Below are positions 18,301 through 53,661 of a stretch of 64,000 nt of DNA, piece after piece. The first letter of the stretch is position 1. Every line of letters starts with the position of its first letter. The position numbers and the translations under genes were made by a program. The notes beneath the pieces were generated by a model that worked only from the letters and a program-made list of their open reading frames with translations, searched no databases and had not been told where the DNA came from. Origin of the DNA: an uncultured delta proteobacterium (GTDB taxonomy: Bacteria; Myxococcota; UBA727; VGSZ01); the NCBI GenBank assembly GCA_963775425.1, contig CAVZJB010000009.1, positions 16,616-80,615 of the forward strand, read 5' to 3'.

Positions 18301-18525
18301 GATCTGGTTCTTGAAACCACAGATGGCTTCGTCGTCATCGACCACAAGAGCTATCCGAACCCGGGCGGAGCTGAAGAGCACGCACGAGCCTTTGCAGGGC
18401 AACTCCACGCTTACGCCGGTGGCATTGAAGCCGCGCGGAAGCGACCCACCCTCGCCACTCTCGTGCACTTCCCCGTCGCCGGTCTCATGGTGCCGGTCGG
18501 CCTCGCGGCCGTGGTGGCTCCATGA
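15366..18525 (+). CDS. AddA-like UvrD/PcrA superfamily-1 helicase with C-terminal RecB-type nuclease; carries an apparent 1-bp frameshift near 15860
   Basis: Walker A ASAGSGKTT, motif III VLVDEFQDTSPIQ, motif IV GDQKQAIYGFRG, C-terminal FVVIDHKSY; two overlapping track ORFs (15366..15947 and 15433..18525) have to be joined; stop overlaps the brxA ATG (ATGA). Confidence 0.65.
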
Positions 18526-19157
18526 GGACCACTCCATCGACGTCGTCCAAGAAGGGGCCGGTCTACAGCGCCGACATCACCAAAGGCGCGTTGATGATCC
18601 CCGAGAGCCGCGTCGTCGCCAACGTCTTGCTGCAGTCGCCGCAGCTCTCGTCCGCAGAGTGGGAGGCGCAGGTTGTGCGGGAGAACATGTTGCAGAAGCG
18701 AAGCCCGGTGACAGCGCGCAGCCGCGCACGCTACCTGCGCGCCCGACTCTCGGTGGGCCCCGCGACGTTGCTTCCGCTGTTGGCGCGGGGCGATACTGAG
18801 CTCGCTGCACAAGCCGCCATGGCGCTTGCCATCAAACACAGCCGCCTCCTCGGCGACTACCTCGACCAGGTCGTGAGGCTTCAGCGGCTTCGCCAGCAAC
18901 CCTCGCTCGTCGCGAAGGATTGGGCCGCCTTCCTCGACAACGCGGAAGGCTACGCGCCCGAAGTGCATGCATGGAGCACCTCCACCCGGCAGAAGCTGGG
19001 GCAGGTTGTACACCAGGCGATGAGCGAGGCGGGCTATCTCGCCGACACGAAGTCCAAGCGCCTGCAACCCGTTCGAGTGCGCGCCGAGATCAGGCGTGTG
19101 CTCGACGATGCGCGAGAGGAATACGTGCTGCGATGTCTGGGGGTTGCGGAAGCATGA
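18522..19157 (+). CDS. brxA: BREX protein BrxA (DUF1819)
   Basis: ~210 aa, position first in the BREX set, conserved SAEWEAQVVRENMLQKRS…RARYLRARL pattern; stop overlaps the brxB ATG. Confidence 0.75.
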   Translation: MRTTPSTSSKKGPVYSADITKGALMIPESRVVANVLLQSPQLSSAEWEAQVVRENMLQKRSPVTARSRARYLRARLSVGPATLLPLLARGDTELAAQAAMALAIKHSRLLGDYLDQVVRLQRLRQQPSLVAKDWAAFLDNAEGYAPEVHAWSTSTRQKLGQVVHQAMSEAGYLADTKSKRLQPVRVRAEIRRVLDDAREEYVLRCLGVAEA

Positions 19158-19735
19158 CGAACGACGACAACTTTCAGGAGCGACTGGACGCGGTGCTGCC
19201 ACGACTCCGTTCCAAGGACTTTCTCGAGTCCACGGGCCTCGGGAACGAGATCGCGTTCTACGTCTTCGACTACCCGCCAGTTCACGAGCTGAAGGTGCGA
19301 GATGAGATCGCTTCTGTTGTGAAGAAGCTCGCCGGAGACAAGCCGCCCATCAAAGTCCGCCACATCAACTTGTTCGATGTCCTCGTCGATCACCTCAAGG
19401 AGCGTGGTTTCCTCGACAAGGTGTTCGAGATGCAACGCACCAAAGGGGACGACGCGGTGCTGTCGCCCCTCAAGGGCCCGCTCGATGCCAAACGCTTTGC
19501 CGACGTCGTCGTGGCGGCAGCGAAGCCGAGCGAAGTCGACCTTGTGCTCGTGTCAGGAGTTGGCGGGGTTTACCCGCTGATCCGCACGCACCAACTCTTG
19601 AACAACCTTCATCCGCTGGTCCCGCACACGCCAATGGTCTTCTTTTATCCCGGCGACTACGACGGCAAGCACTTCCGGCTCTTCGGGAAGCTTCAAAACG
19701 ACAACTACTACCGTGCCTTCAAGCTCGTGAGCTGA
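19154..19735 (+). CDS. brxB: BREX protein BrxB (DUF1788)
   Basis: MTNDDNFQERLDAVLPRLRSKDFLESTGLGNEIAFYVFDYPP…FRLFGKLQNDNYYRAF; position second in the set. Confidence 0.75.
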   Translation: MTNDDNFQERLDAVLPRLRSKDFLESTGLGNEIAFYVFDYPPVHELKVRDEIASVVKKLAGDKPPIKVRHINLFDVLVDHLKERGFLDKVFEMQRTKGDDAVLSPLKGPLDAKRFADVVVAAAKPSEVDLVLVSGVGGVYPLIRTHQLLNNLHPLVPHTPMVFFYPGDYDGKHFRLFGKLQNDNYYRAFKLVS

Positions 19736-19746
19736 GTGGGGAATTC

Positions 19747-22700
19747 GTGAAAATCCAGGCGCTATTTCTGAAACAACTCGACAGACCCATCAACGGCGTC
19801 GTTAAGGCCGAGCAGGTCGCCAACGAAGTCGTCTGGAACGAGCTCGACGAGTACCACGTCACGAAGGAGCTCGACGGTCACCTGCGGAAGTTCCTCGAGG
19901 CGTACACCGCCTCGATCAACTCCCCGACCGACAACATGGGCGTCTGGATTTCGGGCTTCTTCGGATCCGGCAAGTCGCACTTCCTGAAGATCCTCTCGTA
20001 CTTGCTTGCTCGGCGCTCGGCGACGCATCCGCAGTCAGGCATCGCCAGGGATGCTGTCGAGTTCTTCAACACGAAGATCGGGCCGAAGGCTGGCGCCAAA
20101 GGCGATCCGGCGCTCTTCTCCGATGTGCTCACTGCGACATCCAAGCCGACCGACGTGCTCCTCTTCAACATCGATGCGAAGGCTGATGCGAAGTGGGGTC
20201 GCGACGCTGTGCTCCAGGTCTTCGTGCGTGTCTTGAACGAGCGCCAGGGTTTCTCCAGCGACCATCCGCACATCGCCTACATGGAGCGCTACCTGCAGAA
20301 GCAAGGGAAGCTCGACGCTTTCCACGCCGAGTTTCAAAAGCGCGCCGGTAGCGCATGGGTCGCAGAGCGCGATGCCTGGCACTTCCATGAGGACGCGCTG
20401 CGTGGGGCGCTCGCCCTTGCGCTTGGGAAGGACGAAGCGGCGACCAAGGCGTGGTTCGACAAGGCTGAGCAGGACTCGGTTGTCACGGTGGAGAAGTTGG
20501 CGGCGCAGGTGAAGGAGTACCTGGCGACAAAGGGACCGGATCAGCGCGTCGTCTTCTGCGCCGACGAGGTCGGCCAGTTCATCGGCAACGACACACACCT
20601 GATGCTCAACCTGCAGACGGTCGCCGAGCACCTCGGCACCGCGTGCCAGGGGCGCGCCTGGGTCATCGTGACTTCTCAAGAGGACATTGACGCCGTGCTC
20701 GGGCAGTTCCGGGCGGTCAAAGAGAACGACTTCTCGAAGATCCAGGGCCGCTTCAAGACGCGCCTGTCGCTTTCAAGCTCCAACACCGATGAGGTCATCG
20801 GTGCGCGTCTGCTCGAGAAGACAACCGACGCAGTCAAGGAGCTAACGAAGGTCTTCGCGGAGAAGGGCGACATCCTCAAGAACCAGGTGTCGTTCTCATC
20901 GACGAAGAAGAAGTTCCAGAACTACACCGACCCGCAGAGCTTCATCACCGCGTATCCGTTCGCCCCGTACCACTTCGAGCTGGTGCAGAAGATCTTCGAG
21001 TCGATCCGAAAAGCAGGCGCGACCGGCGTGCACCTCGCTCAGGGCGAGCGCTCGATGCTCGACGCCTTCCAATCCGCGGCGCTGGCCATCAAAGACCGTG
21101 AGGTGGGCGCTCTCGTCGCGATCCACCGCTTCTATCCTGCCATCGAGAGCTTCCTCGACACCACGGTCAAGCGGACCATCGACCAGGCCAAAGAAAACCC
21201 GGCGATCAAGGCGTTCCCCGAAGACGTCGAGCTTCTCCGTGCACTGTTTCTCATTCGCTACGTCGACGTGCTCAAGGGAACGGTCGATAACCTCGTCACG
21301 TTGAGTCTCGAGGAAATCGACCAAGACCGGATCGCCCTGAAGAAGAAGATCGAGGCGAGCCTCGAGCGACTTGAGGGCCAGAACCTCATCTCGCGGAGCG
21401 GTGATACGTACAGCTTCCTTACGAGCGAGGAGCAGGATGTCGGCCGCGAGATCAAGAACCAGGAGATTTCCCCAAGCGACGAACAGAGGAAGCTCGCTGA
21501 GCTCATCTACGCGGACGTCCTCAAGGGGCAGGTCAAGCACACGTTCAAGGACAACAAGGTCGACTATAAGCTCACCCGCTACTGCGACGGCCAGCTCACC
21601 GGAAACAAGAAGGACGAAGACCTTGCTGTTTCCGTCGTGACGCCGCTGCACGACACCTACGAAGCGTTCAACCCGGCGCTCTGTGTCACACAGTCGACCG
21701 AGCATGGGGGACAGCTGCTCGTAAAGCTCAGCGACAACCCCCAGTTGCTTCGCGAGTTGAAGCAGTACTTGAAGACCGACAAATACGTCCGCTTCAAGAC
21801 GGACGAGAGCAACCCGGAAACGCTCAAGCGCATTCTTCGCGACCGGGCCGATGAGAACCGCGAGCGTGACGCGCGTCTGCGCGAGATGGTGGAGGTGTTG
21901 CTATCAACCGCGGACTTCTTCGCCGCCGGCAACTCGCTTAAGCCCAAGAGCACCAACGTCGCCGCACAGTTCGCCGAAGGCTTCGACTACCTGGTCCGCA
22001 ACACGTTCAACAAGATGGTGCTGCTCTCGCACCCAAGCAAGGACGCGAGTGCTGCGCAGGCGGAGACGGCGGCTGTTCTCGCAGCAAGCGACACGCACCA
22101 GCAGGCGCTCGGCCTTGGTCTCGAGGCGCCCAACGGCAAGGCGCTTCAAGACCTGCTGCAGTACGTGAAGCTCAGCTCGAGCAACAACCACAAGGTGATC
22201 CTTGAGGACCTGGTCTCGCGTTACGAGCGTCGTCCGTATGGCTGGCCCACGTACGATGTCGTGCTGCTGCTGGCGCGGCTGTTCGTCGCTGGGGAAATCA
22301 CCCTGCTTCTCGATGGGCAGGCGATGGCCCCGGCAGACGCCAAAGACCCGCTCGCCAAGCGCGCAAACTGGAGCAAGGTCACGGTGCGCAAGCGCGCGAC
22401 CACCACCGGCGATGTGCTCAAGAAAGCCCGCGAGCTCGGCAAGAAGCTCTTCGACACCACGGGTCCCGACGGCGAGCAGGAGCTCTCAACGTTCTTGCAC
22501 GAGCGCTTTGCCGACTGGCGATCGGACCTGCAGAAGATCGCGCCACTCTTCGCTGGCGGAAAGTACCCGGGCGAAACAGTCGTCGTTGACGGCCTGCACC
22601 GCATTGAAGCGTTGGTTCACCTGGTTGAGCCCACAGAGTTCCTTGGCACTCTCGTAGCAGACGGTGCTTCGTGGCTCGCCTTCAACGACAAGCGCCAAGA

Positions 22701-23337
22701 CCTTGAGCAGTTCTTCAAGACCCAGCGCCCCACCTGGGATGACCTGCGCCTTGCCGTCGACAGCACCTACAAAGCCAACCTGCACGCGCTTCTCCACCGC
22801 GCTTCGGCGAAGGCGGCCTTCACTTCCATCGGCGAGCTGCTCGCGCTTGCCGAGCCCTACGGGAAGTTGCACACGGCCGCCGCCCTGCTCGCGACCCTGA
22901 AGACGGAGAACGAGGCGCTGCTCGCGGATGTGCGTCCGTCAGCTGTGGCGGCCATCGAGGGCTACGTCGGTCAGCTGAAGGCTGCCATCGAGCAGGCCGA
23001 GAAGACGCGCGGGACAAGCGCCACGGCCGAGCTGCAGAACGGCTGGCTTCATCCGCTGCAAGGTCACCTGAAGACCGCGCAGACCTCCAAAGAGCTGCCC
23101 ACCATCGCCGATGCGCAGCAGCGTGCTGAGGAGGCGCGCAACGACGCCCTGGATGACATCGAGCAGTGGGCGAATCCAAAGGTCCCGAAGCCGCAGCGAC
23201 CAATCCACACCGTGACGGTGTCTTCGCTCGTCAAGACGCCCTACCTCGAGAATGAGAGGGACGTCGACGCGTTTCTGAGCGCCTTGAAGGATGAGCTTCT
23301 CACCATGGTGGCAACGCACCGCATCCGCATCAAGTGA
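19747..23337 (+). CDS. brxC: BREX ATPase BrxC/PglY (1196 aa, P-loop)
   Basis: Walker A GFFGSGKSHFLK, size and position typical of BrxC; intact ORF with GTG start. Confidence 0.85.
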   Translation: MKIQALFLKQLDRPINGVVKAEQVANEVVWNELDEYHVTKELDGHLRKFLEAYTASINSPTDNMGVWISGFFGSGKSHFLKILSYLLARRSATHPQSGIARDAVEFFNTKIGPKAGAKGDPALFSDVLTATSKPTDVLLFNIDAKADAKWGRDAVLQVFVRVLNERQGFSSDHPHIAYMERYLQKQGKLDAFHAEFQKRAGSAWVAERDAWHFHEDALRGALALALGKDEAATKAWFDKAEQDSVVTVEKLAAQVKEYLATKGPDQRVVFCADEVGQFIGNDTHLMLNLQTVAEHLGTACQGRAWVIVTSQEDIDAVLGQFRAVKENDFSKIQGRFKTRLSLSSSNTDEVIGARLLEKTTDAVKELTKVFAEKGDILKNQVSFSSTKKKFQNYTDPQSFITAYPFAPYHFELVQKIFESIRKAGATGVHLAQGERSMLDAFQSAALAIKDREVGALVAIHRFYPAIESFLDTTVKRTIDQAKENPAIKAFPEDVELLRALFLIRYVDVLKGTVDNLVTLSLEEIDQDRIALKKKIEASLERLEGQNLISRSGDTYSFLTSEEQDVGREIKNQEISPSDEQRKLAELIYADVLKGQVKHTFKDNKVDYKLTRYCDGQLTGNKKDEDLAVSVVTPLHDTYEAFNPALCVTQSTEHGGQLLVKLSDNPQLLRELKQYLKTDKYVRFKTDESNPETLKRILRDRADENRERDARLREMVEVLLSTADFFAAGNSLKPKSTNVAAQFAEGFDYLVRNTFNKMVLLSHPSKDASAAQAETAAVLAASDTHQQALGLGLEAPNGKALQDLLQYVKLSSSNNHKVILEDLVSRYERRPYGWPTYDVVLLLARLFVAGEITLLLDGQAMAPADAKDPLAKRANWSKVTVRKRATTTGDVLKKARELGKKLFDTTGPDGEQELSTFLHERFADWRSDLQKIAPLFAGGKYPGETVVVDGLHRIEALVHLVEPTEFLGTLVADGASWLAFNDKRQDLEQFFKTQRPTWDDLRLAVDSTYKANLHALLHRASAKAAFTSIGELLALAEPYGKLHTAAALLATLKTENEALLADVRPSAVAAIEGYVGQLKAAIEQAEKTRGTSATAELQNGWLHPLQGHLKTAQTSKELPTIADAQQRAEEARNDALDDIEQWANPKVPKPQRPIHTVTVSSLVKTPYLENERDVDAFLSALKDELLTMVATHRIRIK

Positions 23338-23449
23338 ATGCCGCAACTTCAGCGAGTTCTAGGCGGAGCTCATCGACGAAATCTGGACCCACGGAAGGCT
23401 GCATGACCTCAGGCAACACCACCCACGAACCCTGCAATCGAATGGTCGG

Positions 23450-26400
23450 GTGCACGCTGCGCCGACACCACCCTGGAAACTGTCAGGTCGCGGCCGCGAA
23501 TCCGGTCGGGCTACGCTCGGGGGCGGGGGACAGCGTGCGGAGTCCCTGAACAAGGCCAAGCTCAAAGCCTTCGCGCCCAAGGCGCGTCGAGACCTCATCC
23601 GGGCCGTCACCGACCGCGCCCAGAAGCTCGGCATCACGAAGGATGGTGCGTCCGACGTCGTCATCCAAGGCGACTCGGCGATCATCATGGGTCAGCCGTA
23701 CCCACGGAAGACGGGCGAGATGCGCGAGGCGCTCCGCCAGCGCATCGGACAGCAAGGCTTCTCGCAGGTCATCGAGGCGGCTGCATACACGTGGTTCAAT
23801 CGCTTCATGGCGCTGCGCTACATGGAAGTGCACGGCTACCTCGACCACGGCTTCCGCGTGCTGTCGGACCCCGAGTCCACAGACACCGGCGCGCTGCCGC
23901 AGATTTTGGGCGAGGCTGAGAACGTCGAATTGCCTGGGCTCAATCGCGAGCTCGTCGTTGAGCTCAAGCTGGCGGGCAACAAGGACGCGGAGCTGTACCG
24001 GAGGCTGGTGCTCGCGCAGTGCGAGGCGCTGCACGCGGCGATGCCATTCCTTTTTGAGCCCATCGACGACGACACCGAACTGTTGCTGCCCGACAACTTG
24101 TTGCACTCGGATTCGATCGTTCGTGGACTTGTGAACGACATCGACGAGGAGGATTGGCAGGAGGTCGAGGTCGTTGGCTGGCTCTACCAGTTCTACATCG
24201 CGGAGAGGAAAGACGAGGTCATCGGCAGCGTGATCAAGAGCGAGGATATTCCCGCCGCGACGCAGCTCTTCACGCCCAACTGGATCGTCCAGTATCCTCG
24301 TTCAGAACAGCGTGGGTCGGCTTTGGCGGCTGGCGAACCCATCGTCGACTCTGTCGCAACAATGGCCGTACTTCATCGACCTGCGAAGCAGACGCCCGAG
24401 GTGCAGGAGCGACTCGACGCCCTGATTAAGTCGCGCATCGTTCAAGACGGCGAAAGCTTGAACCCAGAATCGATCACCATCCTCGATCCAGCGTGCGGCT
24501 CGGGCCACATACTCGTCGTCGCCTACGACGTCCTCAAGGCCATCTACCTCGAGCGTGGATATCAGCCCCGCGAAATTCCGCGCCTGATCCTCGAGAAGGA
24601 ACCTCTTCGGACTCGACATCGACGACCGCGCCGCGCAACTTTCGTCTTTTGCGCTCTGCATGAAGGGCCGTGCGGATGATCGACAGCTCTTCAGCAAGCC
24701 GCCGATTCTAAATGTCCTGCCGATTGCGGACACCGAAGGGCTACGGCTCGACAACCTGGCAACCGACCTCGTGCCGCTCGGCGTTCCCTTTGCTCACCTG
24801 AGCGCTCTCCTCGAGGTGTTCAAACCCGCAAAGACGCGGGGATCGCTTATTCAGATCCCCGAGGAACTGCGCACCGCGTTGCCGTCGATCGCCGTCACGC
24901 TGGAGGCTGCCGGTGCGGCCATGGCCACCCCCGAGGCCCAACTTCAACGTGCGAAAGTCGCGCTACTTGTTCGGCAAGCAAGCATCCTCTCGATGAAGGT
25001 AGACAACGTCATCGCGAACCCGCCGTACATGAACAGGAAGTACCTGAACAACGATCTCGATGCCTTTCTGAAGACGCAATATACCGCCACGCAAATCGAC
25101 CTGTACGCGGCATTTATCATCCGTTCCACTGTATTTGCAAAGGCGACAGGTTTTGTGTCGATGATTGCAATGGATAGTTGGATGTTCGGGCAGGACTTCA
25201 CGTCGACGCGAGCTTCCGTGAACGAGCGCCTCACCCCAATCACGGTGGCACATCTCGGAGCCAGGGCGTTCGAGGAAGTGCCTGGTGAGGTTGTGCAAAC
25301 CGCGGCGTTCTCGTCATATCGGGGGCCGGTGGGCGACTTCATTGGCACCTACTACCGTCTAACAAAAGCGAGTTCGTCCGAGGAAAAGCGGGAGCTGCTA
25401 CTGGCTCGCTCGAACTGCTATCGATCCCGGCTTACAGACTTTTCTCTCTTTCCGCGATGCGCCATGATCTACTACGCCAGTGAACGCACGAAGGAAGCGT
25501 TTAGAAATGGCATTACGCTCGGTGATTTTGCCGACGTCGCGACTGGACTTCAGACCGGTAACAATCCTCGCTTTATCAAGTACTGGTTCGAGGTGAGCCG
25601 CGAGATGATCCAGCGGGAGGCGAAGTCTTGTGCGCACGCCGAGCAGATCGGCGGACGTTGGTTTCCCTATGTCAAAGGGAGTGAATACCGGAAATGGTAT
25701 GGCAGCCAGCTCTGCATTCTCGACTGGCGCGATGACGGACGAGAAATACGACATCACCCATCAAGTGCGGTGCGCAATCCAGACTTCTATTTTCGTCCAG
25801 GGATTGCATACAACAACATCTCAAAGGTCTTTTGTGCGCGTGCGGTCGATGCCGGGGCAATCTTCGATCAGAAGAATTCTATGATTTTTCCTCGGAACGA
25901 CGAGGACCGAGCCGGGATCCTTGGCTTCTTGCATAGTTCCGTCGTGTCCCCCCTCCTTGAGGTGGTCGCGCAAAAGGACTTCAACCCGGGCGCGCTACGG
26001 GAGATCCCTCTCGACGGATCCCTCCTCTCCTCCAAGACGGTGGCCACGGCGGTGAACCGACTCGTTCAACTCGCACGGCAGAACTGGGATGCGTTCGAGC
26101 AGTCGTGGGACTTTTCTGGTCATCCAATAGCTTCGTTTCCGTCGACGCGTCTATCGGAAAGCTGGGCGGCATGGCGCGACGCCAATGCCAATGACGCGGC
26201 GCACGCGAAGCAGACTGGAGGATGAAGTCGATCGCGCCTGCATCGAAGCCTACGGGCTCCAAGCGGAACTCTCTGCTGACGTCCCCGAGGAGCAGATTAC
26301 GCTGGTTCGCGCCGATCGTGAAAGGACTGCCAACGCCTCATCTCCTACGCAGTCGGATGCATGATGGGGCGCTACTGTCTCGATGAGCTAGGGTTGATCT

Positions 26401-27071
26401 ATGCAAATGCTAGCAACATTGGCTTCCAGCCAACCCGCTACAAGACCTTCCCGGCCGATACCGACGGCATCATTCCCATTACCGATGCACTCTGGTTCGA
26501 CGACGACGCCGCAAAACGGGTTCGCGAGTTCTTGCATGCCATCTGGGGCGCTGAAAACCTCGACGAAAACATGAAGTGGCTCGCCGAGAGTCTCGGCACC
26601 AAAGCCACTGAGCTTCCCGAGGAGACGATCCGTCGGTATTTGAGTGACAAGTTTTTCAAGGACCATCTGCAGACCTACAAAAAGCGTCCGATCTACTGGC
26701 TGTTTTCGAGCGGAAAGGAGAAGGCGTTCGAGTGCCTCGTCTACCTGCACCGCTACAACGAATCGACACTCTCCCGAATGCGCGCCGACTACGTCATCCC
26801 GCTGCAGGGAAAGCTCGCGTCCCGCGCCAAACTTCTTGAGACCGAGGAGAAGCAGGCGACGTCGACGGCCCAGAAGCGCAAGCTCCAGAAGGAGCTCGTG
26901 GACGTCGAGAAGAAGGTTGTCGAGATCCGAAAGTTCGACGAGCTGCTCAAGCATCATGCCGACCAACGCATCACGCTCGACCTCGATGCCGGCGTGAACG
27001 TCAACTACGGCAAGTTCGGCGACCTGCTCGCGATGGTCGACAAGGTCTGCGGCGAGAAGGAAGAGGAGTAG
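23450..27071 (+). pseudogene. pglX: BREX adenine-specific DNA methyltransferase PglX (BrxX), split by at least 5 single-base frameshifts
   Basis: Conserved blocks found in three different frames: FTPNWIVQY|LVQNSVGRLW…PYFIDL|…ILDPACGSGH…LILEK|NLFGLDIDDRAAQLS…NPPYMNRK…|IEAYGLQ…|ISYAVGCMMGRYCLD…RPIYWLFSSGK…DAGVNVNYGKFGD; indels sit at CC/GG runs (e.g. cagtatCctcgtt, gagaaGgaacc). Confidence 0.8.
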
Positions 27072-27075
27072 CGGC

Positions 27076-29794
27076 GTGGACACCCAGCAGCTCGTCACCG
27101 GGCTCCGTCAGAAGTTTGAAACCGAGGGCCATCGCATTGTGTTCTGGCACGACGATGCGAAGGCGTTTGAGCTCGAGCTTGCCGAGTTGCCGCTCGCAAG
27201 CCTCGCCGGTGGCGTCACGCTGCTTCGCCTCAGCGACATCGGTGCGCTCGAGGCCAAGGTCCGACTCGAGCGTGCAGAGCCGCAAACGCGCTTCCTCGTC
27301 TACTCCGGGTCCCGCCAGCCCGAGCCCGAACACGACTGGCTGCTCGACATCCGCCTCTACAGCGGCACGTTCAGCGCCAATCGCGCGGCGATGTTGTTGA
27401 GCGAGCTTGGCCTCATCACGCTCTCGCTCAAGGAGCATATCGAGAAGCGCATCGCGTTCTTCGGGAGCCCGCAGCGTGTGGTGGAGCTGAAGAAGCTCGT
27501 CGACCAGAGCGACACCGCAGACTCCCTCGACCTAAAGATGATCGCAGTGCTCGCCCGTGCGCAGAAGGCAGACATCGATCCGATTCTCATCGCGCTGCTC
27601 CATGCTGCCGTGTCCTCCGGCGGCAAGAAGGGCGCGCTCATCTCGAGCGAAGGCGCCGCTTCCGCGTCGGAGCTGGCGTTGGGCGCGGCGCCAGCTGTGG
27701 CCGACCCCGTCGTGGAGCTTGAGAAGCACGGCTTGAGTGCTGCCTTTTGGAGCCGAGTCAAGGCGCACACCGGGTTCGACGATCCATCGCCGTCGCTGAA
27801 GAAGTTGGCGACGCGCATGATGGTGTCTGAGTTCGGGCGCTCGCTGAAGGGCGCGGACCTGCCATCGACGTTGAAGCCGCTGCTCTTGCCCGACGGCAAC
27901 CACACCGCCGCCGTTCGCGTCTGCCTGTCGACGTGGCGTGACAGCGGAGCCTTTCATCAGAGCTACGACATCTGGAGCCGGCGCATCGAGCGCGAGCAGG
28001 AGTTGCCGACCAAGTTGTCTGGGTTCACCCGCCAGCAGCTTGCGACCGCGGGGACCTTCGCCATCAGTGAGAAGCTCACCCTGGCGGCGCTGATGAACGA
28101 GCTCGTCGTGGCCTTCGACCCTGACCAGCCGTTTGACCTGCACGGCTACCAGAAGGCCATCAGCGACCGTCGAACCGGCCATTGGGTGACGGACAAGCTG
28201 CCCGACGCAGAGAAGGTGAAGCGCTCGGCCTTCGCCAATGCCTACCGCGCCCTCGAAGCCGTGGCCGACCTCGTGGGCCTCCGCCGGGCGCACGCAGACG
28301 GGTTCTCGTTCGCGACTGTCGAGGCCATGTGGTCCGCGTACACCACCGACCTCCATCGGTTTGACGGTGGCTACCGACGCTTTCAAGAGGCCGCCGCCGG
28401 CGTGGCGGACACCGGAGCCGATGTTTTGAAGCCGCTAGCGACCAAGGTGGAGGCGCTCTACACGGACTGGTTTCTCCCTGAGCTGGTGAAGGCTTGGATG
28501 CCGTTCGTCGAGGAATCGGCCGGACCTGGTCGCCCGAAGTTGCTCGGGACCTGGCAAATCAAAGACGTCCCAGTGCAGATCGATTTCTATGCGCGCAACG
28601 TCGCCCCGATCCTGCAGGACAAGACCGGACCCAAGCGCGTCTTTGTCATCATCAGCGACGCGCTTCGCTACGAAGTCGCGCAGGAAATCACGAAAGAGCT
28701 GAACGGCACGTACCGGTTCAAAGCTGCGCTGAGCTCTCAGCTCGGGGTTCTCCCCAGCTACACCGACCTCGGCATGGCCGCGCTGCTCCCTCACCAGAAG
28801 CTCGCGTTTGACGAGGGCGGCGACGTGCGGGTCGACGGCAAGCGCCGACAGTCGCTCGAGTTGCAGTCCACCATTCTCGAGACCGTTCACGGCGCGGCTT
28901 TCAACGCCGATGACCTGCTCAAGAAGTCGAAGGAAGATGCGCGCAAGGCCGTGAACGGGTTCCCAGTCGTCTACATCTACGACGGTGGCATCGACGCGGT
29001 CGGTGACAAAGCTGCGACCGAACACCTGACCTGCCTCACGGCACGCGACACCATCAACAAGATCGTGCGGCTGGTGGCCGACATCGTGAACAAGATGAAC
29101 GGTAGCTACATCATCGTCACCGCCGACCACGGCTTTCTATTTCAGGCCGACAAACAAACCGACCTCGACAAGAGCGCGCTCGACGAGAAGTCGGCCGGCG
29201 CGTTCGATCGCGAAGAAGCGCTACGTCATCGGCAGCGACCTCAAGCCTTCAAGCGGGGCCCTCCATGGGAACACCCAGGCGACGGCGGGAATCGAGGGGG
29301 GACCCGAGTTTCTGGTCCCGTACGGCACGCAGCTCTTTCATCTCGCGGGCGGCGCACGCTTCGTCCACGGCGGCTCGATGCTCCAAGAGATCGTCGTTCC
29401 GGTCATCACCGTCAAAGAGCTCGAAGGCAAGAAGGCCAGCGAGGCCAGACCAGAGCCCGTCAAGATCCAGGTGCTCAAGGGACCCCACAGCTTCGTCATG
29501 AACACGCGGAAGTTCGAGCTTCTCCAGATGGAAGCGGTCGCGGGCAAGGTCGTCGCCGCGCGCATCAGCGTCGGCGTGTTCGATGACCAGCAGCTCATCT
29601 CGGACTCCAAGGAGGTGCTCTTCGACAGCACCTCGCAGAGCCAGGAGGAGCGCACCAAAACGGTCGAGCTCACGGTCAAGGGCGACACGTTCGCGAAGAA
29701 GGAATACCGCCTCGTCCTGAAGAACCTCGACACACTCCAGGTGCAGGACTACCCCGTCACCATCAACATCACGTTCTCGAAGATCGACTTCTGA
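27076..29794 (+). CDS. pglZ: BREX alkaline-phosphatase-superfamily protein PglZ (BrxZ); 1-bp frameshift near 29215
   Basis: N-terminal RIVFWHDDAKAFELELAELP…, C-terminal tail …KKRYVIGSDL…FLVPYGTQLFHLAGGARFVHGGSMLQEIVVPVI lies in the ORF 29378..29794 frame; GTG start after a GAAGGAAGAGGAG SD. Confidence 0.8.
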
Positions 29795-29806
29795 GGTGGA
29801 GCGCAC

Positions 29807-31862
29807 ATGACAACCGGCAGCGTTCCCACCACCGCAGACACCGAGCTCGATGCGCTTCTGAAGGAGCACTTCGCAGGCAAGATCGTGCGCAAGGCTCTGA
29901 CCAAGCTCGTGAAGGAGGGCGCAAACGTTCCGATCTACGTGCTCGAGTACCTCCTCGGCATGAACTGCTCGTCGAACGACGAGGCAGTCAACGACCTCGG
30001 GCTGAGCGTCGTCAAGGGCATCCTCTCAGACAACTACGTCCGGCCCGACGAGGCTGAGAAGATCAAGTCCAAGATCCGCGAGAAGGGCTCCTACAAGGTC
30101 ATCGATCGCGTCACCGTCCGCCTCAACGAGAAACGCGACACCTACGAGGCCACGCTCTCGAACCTCGGCATCAAAGGCGTCGAGGTCCCGGCGAGCACGG
30201 TCAAGGAGTTCGAGAAGCTCCTCGCGGGCGGAATCTGGAGCGTCATCTCGCTCCAATACTTCTACGAGGAGGGCCAGAAGGGGTCACCGTTCAGCATCTC
30301 TTCGCTCCGGCCCATCCAGACTGCCGAACATGGACATGGAGGGTCTGTTTGCCGGCCGTGGTCACTTCACGACGGCGCAGTGGATCGACGCCTTGGTGCG
30401 GTCCTCAGGCATGGAGCCCTCCGTGCTCGATGAAAACGTCAAGTGGCACTTGCTCGCCCGCATGGTCCCGTTCGTCGAGAACAACTACAACATGGTGGAG
30501 CTCGGCCCGCGCGGTACCGGCAAGAGCCACATCTACAAAGAGATCTCGCCGAACAGCATTCTCGTCTCGGGTGGCCAGACCACCGTCGCAAACCTGTTCT
30601 ACAACATGGGCACGAGCACCATTGGCCTCGTCGGGCTCTGGGATGTCGTGGCATTCGACGAGGTCGCCGGGATCCACTTCAAGGAGAACGACGGCGTCCA
30701 GATCATGAAGGACTTCATGGCCTCAGGCTCGTTCAGCCGTGGTCGTGCACCCGTCGCCGCGTCGGCGTCGATGGTCTTCGTCGGCAACATCGACGGCAGC
30801 ATCGAAACGCTCGTGAAGACGAGCCATCTGCTCGCCCCCTTCCCCGAGGAGATGATCGACTCAGCCTTCTTCGATCGCATGCACGCCTACCTGCCTGGCT
30901 GGGAAATTCCGAAGATGCGGCCGGAGTTCTTCACGAACCAATACGGTTTCATCGTCGACTACCTCGCCGAATTTATGCGCGAGATGCGCAAGCGCAGTTT
31001 CGCTGACGCGATCGACAAGTACTTCCGCCTCGGCCGCGACTTGAACCAGCGGGACACGATTGCGGTTCGTCGCACTGTGTCGGGCCTGCTCAAGCTGGTG
31101 CATCCCAACGAGAAATACGACAAGGAAGACGTCCGCAAGGCTCTGGAGTACGCGCTGCAAGTCCGGCGTCGCGTCAAAGAGCAGCTCAAGAAGATCGGCG
31201 GGATGGAGTTCTACGACGTCCACTTCAGTTACCTCGACATCGAGAGCGGCGAGGAGCGATTCATCTCGGTGAACGAGCAGGGTGGCGGTTCCCTCATCCC
31301 TGAGAGCCCCGCGAAGCCGGGCGTGCTCTACACGGTCGCACGGGGTTCCGGCGGAATGCTCGGGCTCTACCGACTCGAGCTACAGGTCACAGCGGGGTCG
31401 GGAAAGCTGACGTTGTCCGGCTTCGGCTCGAACACGGCGTCGAAGGAATCAGTCAAGGTCGGCTTCGACTTTTTCAAGGCCAACGCGAGCCGTGTGAGCG
31501 CTTCGATGAAGCCCGGGGATCACGATTTTCACCTCCACATCGTCGAACTGCACAACACCGGTCCAACGACCTCGTTGACGTTGCCCGCGGTGCTCGCGTT
31601 TTCGAGCGCGATGCTTATGAAGCCGATCCTCGGCCAGATGGTTGTGCTCGGCGACATGAGCCTCGGTGGAAGCGTCAAGAAGGCCGAAGACCTTGCGAGC
31701 TCGCTCCAGGTCGCCTTCGATGCTGGCGCGAAGCGGGTCTTGATGCCGATGGCAAGCGTCGGGGACATCCCGACCGTGCCCGGTGAGCTATTCGCGAAGT
31801 TCCAGACGAGCTTCTATGCGGACGCCGTCGATGCGGCGTTCAAGGCTCTTGGCGTCGCGTGA
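29807..31862 (+). CDS. brxL: BREX Lon-like protease BrxL; 1-bp frameshift near 30330
   Basis: N-terminal …GKIVRKALTKLVKEGANVPIYVLEYLLGM…NYVRPDEAEKIKSKIREKGSYKVID… then MDMEGLFAGRGHFTTAQWIDALVRSSGMEPSVLDENVKWHLLARMVPFVENNY…GPRGTGKSH in the next frame. Confidence 0.8.
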
Positions 31863-31926
31863 CCTGGCACTCAGCGTTGTCACGCGCAGTTCGGGCTCAT
31901 CGCGGCCACTACCTGGGGAGCGCACA

Positions 31927-34026
31927 ATGAAAGCGACCGAAGCGAAGCTTCTCGAGTTCCTCAAGAAGTCGCCACAGTTCCTGATCCCGATCTACCAGCG
32001 CACCTACAGCTGGACGGAGAAGGAGTGCCGCCAGCTTTGGGATGACGTCCTGCGCGCGGGGCGGCGTGACGACGTGAACGCGCACTTCGTCGGCTCCATC
32101 GTCTACGTCGAGAAAGGTCTCTACAACGTCTCGAGTCAATCGCCGTTGCTCGTCATCGACGGGCAACAGCGCCTGACCACGATCTCGGTGCTCATCGAGG
32201 CACTTGCGCGAACGCTGGGCAACACCGAACCTCTCGAGGGATTCTCGGCGAAGAAGCTGCGCAACTACTACCTCCTGAACCCGCTCGAGGAGGGCGAGCG
32301 TCGCTACAAGCTCGTGCTCTCCCAGACCGACAGGACCTCACTCATCGCGCTCCTCGATCAGGCGCCCGCGCCGAAAGAGGTGTCGGTCCGCATCGACGCG
32401 AACTTCAAGCTCTTCACCGAGTGGCTGGAAGGAGCAAAGGATGAGCTACCCGCGGTCTGCAAGGGGCTCGCGAAGCTGGTGGTCGTGGACATCAGTCTGA
32501 ACCGGGACCACGACAACCCTCAGCTCATCTTCGAGAGCCTCAACTCCACCGGCAAGGAGCTGAGCCAAGCCGATCTCATCCGCAACTTCATCCTCATGGG
32601 GCTCGAGCCTCAACTCCAGACCCGGCTCTACGAGCAGTACTGGCGGCCGATGGAGGTCGACTTCGGTCAGGAGGGTTACGCGACGCACTTCGACAGCTTC
32701 ATGCGCCACTACTTGACGGTAAAGACCGGCGAGATCCCGAACGTCCGCGAGGTCTACGACGCGTTCAAGAGCTACGCGCGCGCGCCCGGCGCAGCAACAG
32801 TCGAAGCCATCGTCGCCGACATCCGCGCCTTTGCCCGGTACTACTGCGCCATGGCACTCGCGGGCGCGGAGCCCGATGCGGACCTCAAGGAGGTCTTCCA
32901 CGACATCCGCGAGCTGAAGGTCGACGTCGCGTTTCCGTTCCTCCTCGACCTCTACAACGACTATTCGAAGCAGAGCCTCGCGAAGGCTGACTTGGTCAAG
33001 ATCGGGCGCCTCATCGAGAGCTACGTGTTCCGTCGCGCAGTGTGCGCCATCCCGACGAACTCGATGAACAAGACCTTCGCGCAGTTCACGAAGACCGTGA
33101 AGAAGGACCGCTACCTCGAAAGTGTGCAGGCCGCGTTCCTGCTTCTCCCCTCGTACCGGCGGTTCCCGAACGACGATGAGTTCAAGCGGGATCTGCGAGC
33201 GAAGGATCTCTACAACTTCCGCAGCCGCAGCTACTGGCTCCGGCGGCTCGAGAACCACGACCGTAAAGAGCGAGTCCCGGTCGATGAGTACACGATCGAG
33301 CACATCCTTCCGCAGAACCAGAACCTGTCTGACAAGTGGCGCGCCGACCTCGGTGCCGATTGGGCCGCCGTGCAGGAGAAGTACCTGCACACGCTCGGGA
33401 ACCTCACGCTCACCGGCTACAACTCCGAGCTGAGCGACCGGCCTTTCCTCGAGAAACGCGACATGAAGGGCGGCTTCGCCGACAGCCCGCTCCGCGTGAA
33501 CCAAGGACTCGGCAAGCTCGACTTCTGGAACGAAGTCACCATCCAGCAGCGCGCGGAAAAATTGGCCGCGACAGCAGCCACGGTGTGGGCGGCTCCCAAG
33601 CTCGAGGCGGCGGTCCTCGATGGTTACAAGCCAAAGCCCGTCGCCGCTGTCGGCTACACGATCGACGATCACCCGCAGCTGGCGCCTGGTCCGATGCGGA
33701 CCCTCTTCGAGGCGTTCAGCAAGGAAGTGCTCGCACTCGATCCGTGCGTCAGGCTGGAGTTCCTGAAGCTGTACGTCGCGTTCAAGGCCGAGACGAACTT
33801 CGTGGACGTGATCCCGCAAGCGAAGCGGCTGCTCCTCTCGTTGAACGTGAGCATCGGCGACATCAACGACCCGAAGGGCGCTTGCAGGGACGTCTCAGGG
33901 CTCGGACGCTGGGGGAACGGTGACGTCGAGGCGGAGCTCAAGACGCCTGCCGAGTTGCCGTACATCATGGGCCTCGTGCGGCAGGCGCTCGAGAAGCAGC
34001 TTGGCGAGGGGAGCGACGGGGAGTGA
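31927..34026 (+). CDS. GmrSD-family type IV (modification-dependent) restriction endonuclease, BrxU-like (DUF262 ParB-like NTPase + DUF1524 His-Me nuclease)
   Basis: DUF262 motifs IPIYQRTYSW and DGQQRLTTI; DUF1524 motif EHILPQN…W…LGNLTLTGYN; SD GGGGAG before the ATG. Confidence 0.8.
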   Translation: MKATEAKLLEFLKKSPQFLIPIYQRTYSWTEKECRQLWDDVLRAGRRDDVNAHFVGSIVYVEKGLYNVSSQSPLLVIDGQQRLTTISVLIEALARTLGNTEPLEGFSAKKLRNYYLLNPLEEGERRYKLVLSQTDRTSLIALLDQAPAPKEVSVRIDANFKLFTEWLEGAKDELPAVCKGLAKLVVVDISLNRDHDNPQLIFESLNSTGKELSQADLIRNFILMGLEPQLQTRLYEQYWRPMEVDFGQEGYATHFDSFMRHYLTVKTGEIPNVREVYDAFKSYARAPGAATVEAIVADIRAFARYYCAMALAGAEPDADLKEVFHDIRELKVDVAFPFLLDLYNDYSKQSLAKADLVKIGRLIESYVFRRAVCAIPTNSMNKTFAQFTKTVKKDRYLESVQAAFLLLPSYRRFPNDDEFKRDLRAKDLYNFRSRSYWLRRLENHDRKERVPVDEYTIEHILPQNQNLSDKWRADLGADWAAVQEKYLHTLGNLTLTGYNSELSDRPFLEKRDMKGGFADSPLRVNQGLGKLDFWNEVTIQQRAEKLAATAATVWAAPKLEAAVLDGYKPKPVAAVGYTIDDHPQLAPGPMRTLFEAFSKEVLALDPCVRLEFLKLYVAFKAETNFVDVIPQAKRLLLSLNVSIGDINDPKGACRDVSGLGRWGNGDVEAELKTPAELPYIMGLVRQALEKQLGEGSDGE

Positions 34027-34916: not shown

Positions 34917-34920
34917 CATC

Positions 34921-35269: not shown

Positions 35270-35339
35270 CCTTACGTTGGCCCTGGGTGCCGCCGCTTCC
35301 TGGTTTGCTGACCATCAACAGCAAACAAAGGAAGAACAG

Positions 35340-38111: not shown

Positions 38112-38147
38112 GGGGCCGCCTCCGCGGCTCCTCAGCAGATCACGGGC

Positions 38148-39900
38148 TCACGCCGTCAGGGCGGCAAAACCGGCACCGGTAATTGTCGTCGAGCGGCACT
38201 GGTAGTTGTCGTTCATCAAGCGGTCCTTGTCCTTCGTCTTCTTGTCTGTGAGCGCGCTCCGCGCGTGCGCGAAGAGCGCCGCGTTCGGCGCGTCGAGGTA
38301 GAGGTTGCGGTTCTGCTTGCCCGCGGCGAGCCCGAGCTCTCTCCGAATGATGTCGGCCTCGTGGTAGTGGACGCCGTAGCGGCACACCATCAGCGTCATC
38401 GCGAGGACCAGCTCGCCGACGTCCAGACGCGCCGCCGCCACGAGGGCCGCTTCTCGCACGGCGCGCGCTTCGTAGATGCGCTGGTCACGCCGCTCCTGTT
38501 CCCGCTTCCACGCGCCGTCGTCGTTCTGGGCTCGACTGTGGGCGGGAGATCCGGGCAGTGGCGCCTCGCGCAGTGGACGCATCACCTTGTGTGCATCCTT
38601 GTGGCCGAGGTCCCACAGCGCAGTCGCGAGGTCCGCTTGGGTGATCAGCCGGCGGGCGTGACCGTCCCTGTCGAGCGTGACGCGAATGGAGGGGTGCCCG
38701 ATGCCGATGACGTCGGCCCATGTCTTGGTCGGCTCTTCGGGTTCTGCTTCGAAGTCGTCCGGGAGCTCAGCGAGCTCGTGGTCTTCGAGGTATGCGCCGG
38801 CGCGGAGGTTCCACTGATCGAGCGCCGCCTTGTGCGCGGCCCGCTCGGGGAACACGGCGTCGATGGCGTGCTCGCGCTCAGCGGTCGTCGCGTGGTGCTG
38901 CCGCTTGATCGCCCACTCGAGGTGGTGCTCGACGTCGATCCACCCGTCGACGGGTTCGCCGCCGAAGCTCCAGAGCGTCTTCGCCTCTTTCGGGTCGATG
39001 ACGTCCTGTCCCTTCTCGAAGGCGGCGGCGAGATTCTCTGTCGGCTTGCACGGTAACCTTGCCTTCCCAGCAGCCGGCGTCGAGGCACGCGTCATGCGAG
39101 TCGGTGTCGCCGATCTGGAACAGCTGCGCCTGCGCATGCGTGCGCTTCCCGCAGGAGAGGCAAGAGCCCGCTGACGAGACCAGGTCGGCGTCATCGAGCA
39201 CCCACCGCGCGTGCATCAGCTTCCTCGATCCGAGCAGGATGAAGTGATCGACCTCGCGGTGGCTCAGCACGGCTCCCTCCTCGATGAGGAACTCGTAGCG
39301 GGTTCGGATCGCCTTCAGCGCTTGATGCTGCGCCTTCTCGTCGACGCGGGCGAAGAGCAGGGCCGACCGGATCTGGAGGTTGCCGCGGCGTAGGAACTCC
39401 TGGACGTCGGCGATGAGCTCGGTGAGCTTGAGGCGCTGGTAGACGTGCGCTTCGGAGCGCCCGACGTCGCCGGCGATCTGGGCAGCGGAGAGGCCGTGCT
39501 CGTCGCGCAGCTGCCGGTAGCTCTCGGCCTCCTCCAGCGGCGGGACGTCCGCGCGCTGGCCGTTCTCGACGAGCATGACCTTGAGCGCCGTGGCGTCGTC
39601 CATCTCCTTCACCACGACCCGGAACGTGGACACCCCGGCGTTCGTGCACGCGCGGAAGCGCCGGTGCCCCGCGACGAGCTCCAGCGCTCCGGGCTCCGTC
39701 GGGTGCGGGCGCGCGAGGCCGGGCACGATCTGTCCCATCTGGGCAATCGACGCCGCGAGTTCTTCGAGCCCATCGAAGGTCTTGCGCGGGTTCCGCGGGT
39801 TCTCGCGCAGCACGGCGAGCGGAACGACGCGGTAGTCGGCCTGCGCATCATCTTTGCGCGGCTTGTGCTTGGTCCTCTTCTCGGCTCCGACGCTCGACAT
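38148..39900 (-). CDS. ParB/sulfiredoxin-like nuclease-domain protein with zinc-ribbon, probably fused (via a frameshift near 39060) to a ~300-aa C-terminal region of unknown function
   Basis: ParB N-terminal domain ELVAGHRRFRA; CLSCGK…CLDAGCW; two overlapping track ORFs (38878..39903 and 38148..39194) whose good-looking parts abut near 39060; ATG 39900 with AAGGAGG. Confidence 0.5.
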
Positions 39901-39985
39901 CACGGCCTCCTTCGGTTCATGTGCGGAGGGATTCGGGTCCTCCGCTTCAACGGCTGAAGCGGGGACCCGATGAAACGGGCCAGGG

Positions 39986-53517: not shown

Positions 53518-53661
53518 CACCACCTGCAGCTTCACCGGCGGCATACGACGATCGGACCTCGAGAAACGGGATAGCCTATCGGGACCCGTTTGAGGAAGCC
53601 GTGACGCTGGTCGCTCCGTCCGTCGGACGCACGAGGCCCTCGGCCCGGGGGCCGGCGGCGC

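What the first reader, a model, noticed from the sequence alone, without database searches (positions are those of the whole stretch)
23450..31862. pglX carries at least 5 independent single-base frameshifts (pglZ and brxL one each) while brxC and other long neighbours are intact - decayed BREX or error-prone assembly?
Conserved PglX blocks alternate between frames at ~24290 (extra C in cagtatCctc), ~24400 (missing C in gacctgcg), ~24600 (extra G in gagaaGgaacc), ~26200 and ~26320. pglZ shifts at ~29215 and brxL at ~30330 (actgccGaacatgg). All sit at 2-3-nt G/C runs, which is the signature of homopolymer base-calling errors. But five in the 3.6-kb pglX versus none in brxC (3.6 kb), priA (2.5 kb) or the 3.9-kb repeat-rich gene is far above a uniform rate (window-wide ~9 lesions in ~55 kb coding gives an expectation of ~0.6 in pglX). 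A methyltransferase that is silenced while the rest of the system is retained would be biologically meaningful: escape from BREX autoimmunity, or a phase-variable locus that went irreversible.
Basis: seen in the sequence. Interest (0 to 1): 0.55.

Follow-up and report, generated by a model that had tools for sequence, protein, structure and literature searches.

The report
Likely assembly indels in BREX pglX
The five single-base frameshifts in the methyltransferase gene of this BREX phage-defence locus are really in the sequence, but they look like consensus errors of a long-read assembly in a strain-variable gene, not a decayed or silenced defence system, so the finding is ordinary.

Summary
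Frameshift-aware alignment to intact homologues finds exactly five single-base lesions in pglX: insertions at about 24296, 24599 and 26214, and deletions at about 24379 and 26324. pglZ has one (about 29207) and brxL one (about 30320). brxA, brxB, brxC and GmrSD have none. Five one-base edits restore a 1174-codon PglX with no stop and intact DPACGSG and NPPY motifs.

The lesions are most likely assembly artefacts:
- **Same lesion elsewhere.** It also breaks an AddA-like helicase (about 15866), a ParB-like gene (about 39035) and an FHA gene (about 53345).
- **No shared lesions.** The only close relative, a 4-kb ENA contig, carries about ten different frameshifts and shares none.
- **Indels rival substitutions.** In a 1.7-kb block where the two are nearly identical (5 substitutions) there are 3 single-base indels.
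- **No decay.** With indels removed, neither allele has a stop, and dN/dS is 0.08–0.14.
- **Not slippage.** No lesion sits in the gene's nine homopolymers of 5 nt or more.
- **Other long-read-type contigs are broken too.** 115 of 125 pglX loci are intact.

The excess in pglX is real (P about 1e-4 to 2e-3). All five lesions lie near the borders of the shared block, which suggests mixed-allele consensus errors. This is unproven without reads.

The parts
18522..19157 (+). brxA, intact
   Evidence: Pfam BrxA, E = 1.1e-43. No internal frameshift in 5 homologue alignments.
19152..19735 (+). brxB, intact. The start is approximate; the listed ORF 18920-19735 is an upstream extension.
   Evidence: Pfam BrxB, E = 4e-39. 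Coding frame from the HMM is 19152-19728. No frameshift.
19747..23337 (+). brxC, intact, 1196 aa
   Evidence: Pfam BrxC domains. 0 frameshifts with 5 of 5 intact homologues.
23546..27071 (+). pglX (brxX) methyltransferase gene, broken into four ORF pieces by five single-base indels. The corrected product is 1174 aa with DPACGSG and NPPY motifs.
   Evidence: Full-length matches (residues 1 to about 1172) to PglX in 125 loci.
24294..24297 (+). pglX lesion 1: one extra base (CAGTATCCTCG; L001 has CAGT-TCCTTG). Which base was inserted is ambiguous (A or C).
   Evidence: The codon HMM finds the 24294-24382 frame excursion on its own.
24379..24380 (+). pglX lesion 2: one missing base (ATCGA-CCTGCG; L001 has ATCGAGCCCGCG). 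It restores the frame after lesion 1 and leaves about 28 scrambled codons without a stop.
24598..24599 (+). pglX lesion 3: extra G (GAGAA[G]GAACC), 32 nt left of the near-identical block.
24630..26323 (+). Block of pglX that is nearly identical (5 substitutions) to ENA contig L001. The flanks have dS of 0.5-0.8. GC3 is 0.67 in the block against 0.79-0.86 in the flanks and other brx genes. It covers the methyltransferase core and the region that follows, and looks like a recently exchanged cassette.
26214..26214 (+). pglX lesion 4: an A inserted between G and C (AAGCAG[A]CTGGAG). It is not in a homopolymer and is unambiguous against the identical L001 sequence.
26324..26325 (+). pglX lesion 5: one missing base (GAAAG-GAC; L001 has GAAAGAGAC), exactly at the right border of the near-identical block. 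The out-of-frame stretch 26214-26324 has 3 stops in the read-through frame.
27076..29794 (+). pglZ, with one single-base insertion at about 29206-29209 just after the PglZ domain. The listed 836-aa ORF (to 29586) runs on in the wrong frame.
   Evidence: Pfam PglZ. Frame change shown (5 of 5 homologues).
29807..31862 (+). brxL, with one single-base insertion at about 30317-30323 (CAGACTGCCG). It is split into 208-aa and 510-aa ORFs.
   Evidence: Pfam BrxL_N / BrxL_ATPase / Lon_C. (5 of 5 homologues).
15366..18525 (+). AddA/UvrD-like helicase-nuclease upstream of brxA, with a frameshift at about 15866. This is a lesion of the same kind outside BREX.
   Evidence: UvrD-helicase profile positions 16-129 lie in ORF 15366-15947 and positions 166-263 in the other frame. 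HMM frame change at 15866.
38148..39903 (-). ParB-like gene with a single-base insertion at about 39033-39039. This is a lesion of the same kind outside BREX.
   Evidence: Three homologues (P0040, P0042, P0044) place it there..
52440..53544 (-). FHA-domain gene with a +1 frame change (most simply one extra base) at about 53345, inside its first FHA domain. It lies beyond the integrase gene at the right-hand end of the mobile-element region.
   Evidence: The FHA motif continues in another frame...REWYLEDLE | STHGTKHNGK.... HMM frame change at 53342.
31783..34026 (+). GmrSD-type restriction gene after brxL, intact.
   Evidence: Pfam GmrSD_N / GmrSD_C. No frameshift against a homologue.

Best explanation
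The locus is an ordinary type 1 BREX system (brxA-brxB-brxC-pglX-pglZ-brxL) in a mobile defence island of a high-GC, probably myxobacterial, genome.

The seven frameshifts in it, and at least three more elsewhere in the window, are most likely single-base consensus errors of a long-read (meta)genome assembly. They are probably not mutations in the organism.

They pile up in pglX because pglX is a strain-variable, mosaic gene. A 1.7-kb cassette (24630-26323) is shared almost identically with another allele whose flanks are 10-27% divergent. If reads from more than one allele are anchored in the shared cassette, the consensus becomes unreliable around the cassette borders, and that is where all five lesions lie.

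Shown here:
- the lesions and their exact nature;
- the same kind of lesion in unrelated genes;
- non-shared lesions in the close relative;
- the absence of decay;
- the mosaic structure.

Inferred:
- that the source is a long-read assembly;
- that mixed-allele consensus is the reason for the clustering.
For: 1. Every lesion is a single-base indel, and five one-base edits restore a stop-free 1174-codon PglX with its catalytic motifs.

2. The same lesion type breaks the AddA-like helicase at about 15866, the ParB-like gene at about 39035 and the FHA gene at about 53345.

3. L001 (ENA ERZ25039495 contig_20113) is 90.6% identical over window 23534-27500. It has about ten frame-breaking indels of its own and shares none with the window.

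4. In block 24630-26323 the two sequences differ by 5 substitutions but by 3 single-base indels plus one 3-bp indel. That ratio fits sequencing error, not evolution.

5. With indels masked, neither allele has an in-frame stop. dN/dS is 0.083 in the left flank (dS 0.51) and 0.142 in the right flank (dS 0.84).

6. Lesions avoid all nine homopolymers of 5 nt or more in pglX, and two (26214, 26324) are clearly non-homopolymeric. This argues against replication slippage.

7. Of 125 loci with full-length pglX, 115 have one ORF of at least 1100 aa. All three contigs that appear to come from long-read assemblies are broken: L001, L002 (whose contig name includes '_6x_') and L029 (MFD09671 MAG). L029 has about 50 frameshifts in brxC, pglX, pglZ and brxL with undiminished protein similarity, so error-dense patches at BREX loci do occur in public assemblies of this kind.

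8. All five pglX lesions lie from about 340 nt outside to 110 nt inside the borders of the shared block (post hoc P about 1e-3). The two deletions sit at positions where the L001 allele differs.
Against: - No reads are available, so no lesion is directly shown to be an error.
- The sequencing technology of the window is not known. I infer it only from the kind of relatives found and from the error pattern.
- The excess in pglX (5 against 0.55-1 expected) is not explained by a uniform error rate, and the mixed-allele explanation for it is untested.
- Real inactivation of pglX does occur. A related Myxococcota locus (L152) has pglX split by an IS66 element, and about 6% of the other loci are disrupted.
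[quoted passage not shown] A biological route to several BREX frameshifts therefore exists.
Confidence: 0.83

Rival explanations
1. Genuine recent pseudogenisation. The BREX system of this strain has truly been knocked out by real indels in pglX (five), pglZ and brxL. One route would be that an imbalance, such as loss of pglZ or brxL, made the remaining components toxic.
For: - The lesions are concentrated in pglX, pglZ and brxL while brxABC are intact.
- pglX is naturally disrupted in some relatives, for example by IS66 in L152.
Against: - Selection for loss explains one hit per gene, not five. Further hits would be neutral and should come with many more substitutions and some stops.
- Yet the corrected gene has no stop, and dN/dS is 0.08-0.14.
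- The 1.7-kb block differs from L001 by only 5 substitutions.
- The same lesion type hits unrelated genes: helicase, ParB-like and FHA.
- L001 has a different set of about ten lesions.
- Lesions avoid homopolymers, where real indels concentrate.
Confidence: 0.09
2. Mixed case. Most lesions are assembly errors, but one or two in pglX are real population variants, such as an OFF allele at high frequency, so the locus is heterogeneous for BREX activity.
For: - The excess in pglX is not fully explained.
- pglX alleles are clearly variable and recombining in this lineage.
- Phase variation of pglX is documented in Streptomyces (Sumby & Smith 2003, as cited in PMC9009780).
Against: - No repeat tract or long homopolymer lies at any lesion.
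- Nothing distinguishes any one lesion from the others.
Confidence: 0.06
3. Systematic base-calling error at a methylated motif. The organism's own DNA methylation, possibly by BREX itself, perturbs the long-read signal and causes motif-linked indels, and pglX happens to be rich in that motif.
For: - ATCCTC/GAGGAT lies within 15 nt of 4 of the 10 lesions. It is 3.4 times denser in pglX (2.27 per kb) than in the window (0.66 per kb). It has an A at position 5, as known BREX motifs do.
- CAGACTG occurs only twice in the window, and both occurrences are at lesions: 26211 and 30317.
Against: - The 6-mer enrichment is marginal (Bonferroni P = 0.03 for k = 6 alone). By my own rough estimate it does not survive correction for the local composition of pglX.
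- At lesion 1 the motif exists only because of the inserted base.
- 5 of the 8 motif sites in pglX, and nearly all the other sites in the window, carry no lesion.
- The base inserted in brxL may be C rather than A.
Confidence: 0.02

Closest known systems
Type 1 BREX system (brxA-brxB-brxC-pglX/brxX-pglZ-brxL), e.g. E. coli HS (PMC6326788)
   Same: Same six genes in the same order, with matching Pfam domains. The corrected PglX is full length (1174 aa), aligns end to end with PglX from many phyla at 30-48% identity, and keeps the DPACGSG and NPPY methyltransferase motifs.
   Different: As deposited, pglX, pglZ and brxL are interrupted by single-base indels. An AddAB-like helicase-nuclease pair lies directly upstream, and GmrSD and a Csm6-like gene lie downstream. 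The upstream helicase is also seen in the Myxococcota locus L152.
Residual indel errors and error-dense patches in long-read metagenome assemblies, illustrated here by L001, L002 and the MFD09671 MAG L029
   Same: Single-base indels that split otherwise well-conserved genes. They are not shared between near-identical sequences, they occur in unrelated genes, and they are patchy along a contig.
   Different: The window has a far lower density than L001 (about 2.5 per kb) or L029 (about 4 per kb). The window's sequencing platform and depth are unknown to me.
Phase variation of pglX in the Streptomyces coelicolor Pgl system (Sumby & Smith 2003, cited in PMC9009780)
   Same: The same gene family is switched off by a frameshift.
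   Different: From my own knowledge, that switch works by length change of one long G tract. Here there are five lesions, none in a repeat tract or in any of the homopolymers of 5 nt or more.
Natural pglX disruption by mobile elements or gene splitting (L152 IS66 insertion; L028, L036, L052, L065)
   Same: pglX is the interrupted BREX gene while its neighbours stay intact.
   Different: Those are single events, an insertion or one split near residue 860. They are not multiple single-base indels.

Membership tests
Type 1 BREX | Six-gene set brxA, brxB, brxC, pglX, pglZ, brxL, co-oriented and in this order | tested here: met
   Pfam BrxA, BrxB, BrxC domains, Eco57I/MmeI_Mtase, PglZ, and BrxL_N/BrxL_ATPase/Lon_C on consecutive + strand ORFs across 18522-31862.
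Type 1 BREX | PglX is a full-length N6-adenine methyltransferase with an SAM-binding motif and NPPY | tested here: met
   Met only after five one-base corrections. The product is 1174 aa, with DPACGSG at residue 345 and NPPY at residue 522 of the translation from the upstream GTG at 23450 (subtract 32 for the 1174-aa numbering). It matches homologues from residue 1 to about 1172.
Type 1 BREX | All components encoded as uninterrupted ORFs, that is, a functional system as deposited | tested here: not met
   pglX has 5 frameshifts, pglZ 1 and brxL 1 in the deposited sequence. Whether this holds in the organism cannot be tested here.
Decaying pseudogene | Relaxed selection: in-frame stops and dN/dS approaching 1 once the frame is restored | tested here: not met
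   0 stops in 1174 codons in both the window and L001. dN/dS is 0.083 and 0.142 in the diverged flanks.
Decaying pseudogene | Indels are a minority of changes relative to substitutions | tested here: not met
   Block 24630-26323 has 5 substitutions against 3 single-base indels plus one 3-bp indel between the window and L001.
Phase-variable (contingency) locus | Frameshift located in a long homopolymer or short tandem repeat tract | tested here: not met
   The longest run in pglX is 6 nt. There are nine runs of 5 nt or more and none is at a lesion. No short tandem repeat of 4 or more copies was found.
Assembly or consensus error | The same lesion type in unrelated genes of the same contig | tested here: met
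   AddA-like helicase at about 15866, ParB-like gene at about 39035 and FHA gene at about 53345.
Assembly or consensus error | Lesions not shared by near-identical sequences from other assemblies | tested here: met
   None of the window's 5 pglX lesions is in L001, and none of L001's about 10 is in the window.
Assembly or consensus error | Reads do not support the indels | not testable with these tools
   No reads are available, and the source record could not be retrieved.

The most novel reading that the evidence does not exclude
The indels are real. This strain would then carry a BREX locus that was hit repeatedly in pglX, and once each in pglZ and brxL, within a very short time, with the pglX hits clustered at the junctions of a freshly imported methyltransferase/specificity cassette. 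That would mean either that swapping the PglX specificity module is mutagenic at its borders, or that it triggers strong, repeated selection against the new specificity (self-targeting after a motif change). It would be a natural counterpart of the multiple frame-shifting deletions seen when E. coli BREX is unbalanced.
Probability: 0.08. Interest if true: 0.5.

Novelty: not a real feature. Interest (0 to 1): 0.12.

Why it matters
If the lesions are artefacts, as I conclude, the point is practical.

- **Annotation.** This BREX locus should be annotated as intact. Counts of 'degraded' defence systems in long-read metagenome assemblies are inflated, especially in strain-variable genes such as pglX. 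One public MAG in the comparison set (L029) shows about 50 such frameshifts across its BREX genes.
- **A by-product of some biological interest.** pglX here is a mosaic. Its 1.7-kb methyltransferase-core cassette is nearly identical between two alleles that are otherwise 10-27% divergent, and the cassette has a distinct codon composition. This is evidence for recent exchange of the central part of PglX between lineages.

If the lesions were real, the locus would be a natural example of multi-hit BREX inactivation.

Tried and rejected
1. **Looking for the source record.** Exact-product look-ups of two window ORFs and of P0039 found nothing. The cluster look-up shows only that P0039, which is 100% identical to window 38148-38855, sits on a 394,389-bp NCBI/ENA contig.

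2. **Looking for a close, short-read-derived relative of pglX.** I wanted one to show the intact allele. The genome contigs and metagenome-contig scans gave 150 loci, none above about 50% amino-acid identity over the full length.

3. **GC3 sliding-window frame calling.** It was too noisy at this GC content. I replaced it with a codon-usage Viterbi model and with frameshift-aware protein-to-DNA alignment.

4. **Methylation-motif hypothesis.** ATCCTC/GAGGAT and CGAAG are enriched near lesions, and CAGACTG occurs only at two lesions. I rejected it as unsupported after allowing for local composition and for ambiguity about which base was inserted.

5. **Compensating-frameshift reading.** The idea is a gene switched off and then back on. 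The pair 24296/24379 leaves an open frame but scrambles the conserved LVQNSVGRLW segment. The pair 26214/26324 leaves three stops. Neither restores function.

6. **Second pglX copy in the window.** None was found. No PglX homologue matches outside 23.3-27.2 kb.

7. **Other frame changes suggested by the HMM.** Candidates are at about 35077, 35251, 36369, 40473, 40800, 41594, 44000 and 48850. They could not be verified because Pfam and NCBIfam give no hits there. I counted them only as an upper bound in the statistics.

Full report
**What is there.** Window 18.5-34 kb carries a type 1 BREX system. Pfam identifies the following genes:
- brxA, 18522-19157
- brxB, ending at 19735
- brxC, 19747-23337, 1196 aa
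- pglX pieces at 23450-24679, 24660-26225 and 26361-27071
- pglZ, from 27076
- brxL in two pieces, 29807-30433 and 30330-31862
- a GmrSD restriction gene, 31783-34026

The system sits in a mobile region with lower GC than its surroundings, 58-64% against 66-78%. That region also holds IS66, IS21, transposase, ParB-like and integrase genes.

**Checking the observation.** tblastn with PglX homologues shows conserved blocks alternating between frames. To place the changes objectively I wrote a protein-to-DNA alignment that allows one-base insertions and deletions at a penalty, then ran it with intact homologues taken from fetched loci.
- For pglX, four homologues give five events. All four place an insertion at 24296, a deletion at 24379 and an insertion at 24599. 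The fourth event is an insertion at 26211-26214 (one homologue puts it at 26178). The fifth is a deletion at 26324-26330.
- pglZ has one insertion at 29206-29209, and brxL one at 30320, each in five of five homologues.
- brxC has none in five of five. brxA, brxB and GmrSD have none apart from end effects.
- A codon-usage Viterbi model finds the main frame changes without using homology. At a lower switching penalty it finds the 24294-24382 excursion exactly, and no comparable excursion in any other gene.
- Five one-base edits give one 1174-codon ORF without a stop, with DPACGSG and NPPY motifs.

One detail is not. The lesions are not all in G/C runs. 26214 is an A inserted between G and C, and 26324 is a base lost from AG_GA. 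None of the nine homopolymers of 5 nt or more in pglX is hit.

**Is the excess in pglX real?** I confirmed three further lesions outside BREX.
- The AddA/UvrD-like helicase at about 15866 has its UvrD profile split between frames.
- The ParB-like gene has an insertion at about 39033-39039, placed there by three homologues.
- The FHA gene at about 53345 has its FHA motif continuing in another frame.

That makes at least 10 lesions in 64 kb, of which 8 are insertions and 2 deletions. Under a uniform rate pglX should carry 0.55, and P(>=5) is about 1e-4. If all eight unverified HMM candidates are counted as lesions, P is about 2e-3. The excess is real, though the test is post hoc.

**Real mutations or artefacts?** The decisive material is L001, a 4-kb ENA contig (ERZ25039495 contig_20113). 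It aligns to window 23534-27500 at 90.6% identity.
- L001's pglX is also in pieces, but from about ten indels of its own. None of the window's five lesions is in L001, and none of L001's is in the window.
- The alignment is a mosaic. Positions 24630-26323 differ by only 5 substitutions, while the flanks are 73-90% identical.
- Inside that near-identical block there are three single-base indels (25188 and 25924 in L001, 26214 in the window) and one 3-bp indel. Indels are about as frequent as substitutions, which is what sequencing error produces and not what evolution produces.
- With all indel columns masked, both alleles translate through 1174 codons without a stop.
- dN/dS is 0.083 in the left flank (dS 0.51) and 0.142 in the right flank (dS 0.84).
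- A gene that had drifted long enough to collect five neutral indels should show many substitutions and some stops. It shows neither. Selection for inactivation explains one hit, not five.

**Comparison across loci.** Among 125 fetched loci that cover PglX end to end, 115 have one ORF of at least 1100 aa. The ten broken ones include all three contigs that appear to come from long-read metagenome assemblies: L001, L002 (whose contig name includes '_6x_') and L029 (a Microflora-Danica-style MFD MAG).
- L002 has single-base lesions in pglX and pglZ.
- L029 has about 50 frameshifts across brxC, pglX, pglZ and brxL, starting in mid-brxC, yet its alignment scores are as high as those of intact homologues. 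Error-dense patches at BREX loci therefore occur in public assemblies of this kind.
- The other broken loci are single natural events: an insertion, or a split near residue 860.
- In the Myxococcota locus L152, which shares the window's helicase-brxABC-pglX-pglZ-brxL synteny, pglX is split by an IS66 insertion.

**Why pglX?** All five lesions lie near the borders of the near-identical block.
- 24599 is 32 nt outside the left border.
- 26324 is at the right border.
- 26214 is 110 nt inside the right border.
- 24296 and 24379 are about 250-340 nt outside the left border.

The block also has a distinct composition, GC3 0.67 against 0.79-0.86 in the flanks and the other brx genes. It looks like a recently exchanged cassette.

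My inference runs as follows. More than one pglX allele sharing this cassette coexisted in the sample. Reads anchored in the shared block were pooled across alleles. The consensus then broke down where the alleles start to differ. The two deletions do fall at positions where the L001 allele carries a different base. This step is plausible but unproven.

A methylation-motif explanation was considered. ATCCTC/GAGGAT lies near four lesions, and CAGACTG occurs only at two lesions. I judge that it does not survive correction for local composition, and the identity of the inserted base is ambiguous.

**What the biology says.** In E. coli, deleting brxX (pglX) abolishes both methylation and defence, and the mutant strains were obtained and propagated. 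Silencing pglX is therefore not an escape from autoimmunity in the restriction-modification sense (PMC6326788). [quoted passage not shown] A biological route to several BREX frameshifts therefore exists, and I keep it as the main rival at about 9%. Phase variation as in Streptomyces pglX needs a repeat tract, and none lies at any lesion.

**Verdict.** The clustering is probably caused by allele heterogeneity in a mosaic gene. The system itself is a standard type 1 BREX. Interest is low. The only residual biological point is the exchanged pglX cassette. Reads or resequencing would settle the matter.

Noticed in passing
window 24630-26323 vs L001 1124-2813: pglX is a mosaic. A 1.7-kb block covering the methyltransferase core and the region after it differs by 5 substitutions from another allele whose flanks have dS of 0.5-0.8. 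The block has GC3 of 0.67 against 0.79-0.86 in the flanks. This suggests a recent exchange of the central PglX cassette between lineages.
   Followed up: partly
L029 7000-23500 (OY969427.1, MFD09671 MAG): A public 5-Mb single-contig MAG has about 50 frameshifts in brxC, pglX, pglZ and brxL, starting in mid-brxC, while brxA, brxB and the left flank are clean. Protein similarity is undiminished, so this is an error-dense patch and not decay.
   Followed up: partly
L152 5238-11569 (Myxococcota MAG GCA_042567805.1): This related BREX locus has the same upstream UvrD/PDDEXK helicase. Its pglX is split into 689-aa and 522-aa parts by a three-ORF IS66 element, which is a genuine natural inactivation.
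   Followed up: partly
window 12776-18525: An AddB-like PD-(D/E)XK protein (862 aa) and an AddA/UvrD-PDDEXK helicase-nuclease lie directly upstream of brxA. The same helicase precedes brxA in L152, so the association with BREX may be conserved in this lineage.
   Followed up: no
window 23534-23550: Homologues and L001 start PglX at a TTG/ATG that aligns to a CTG in the window (GAGTCCCTGAAC against L001 GAGTCACCGTTGAAT, a 3-nt difference). The window's pglX start codon is therefore unclear. The nearest in-frame GTG is 32 codons upstream.
   Followed up: no
window 31783-34916: A GmrSD type IV restriction gene overlaps the end of brxL by 80 nt. It is followed by a gene with a sub-threshold match to the Csm6 / Cas_NE0113 ring-nuclease family, with no CRISPR-Cas genes among the ORFs examined.
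   Followed up: no
window 38131-38150: Three of five ParB-like homologues extend 10-15 residues past the window's stop through a one-base deletion at about 38131-38137. This could be an eleventh lesion near the 3' end, or natural variation.
   Followed up: no
window 34900-35700, 40400-41000, 48200-48900: The codon-usage model changes frame on the same strand at about 35077, 35251, 40473, 40800 and 48850. These are in genes with no Pfam or NCBIfam match, or with only a weak, sub-threshold excisionase-type HTH hit at 48261-49283. They may be further single-base lesions.
   Followed up: partly
window 55210-62082 (- strand) and 57859-61740 (+ strand): The 75-78% GC region holds a 1293-aa DUF4388 gene and, opposite it, a 2290-aa shadow ORF. 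AT skew reaches 0.49 at 58-60 kb. Open reading frames alone are uninformative at this composition.
   Followed up: no
L036 7525-13452: A gut Acutalibacteraceae MAG has two tandem copies of the first 860 residues of PglX followed by one C-terminal part. This resembles a specificity-switching arrangement.
   Followed up: no
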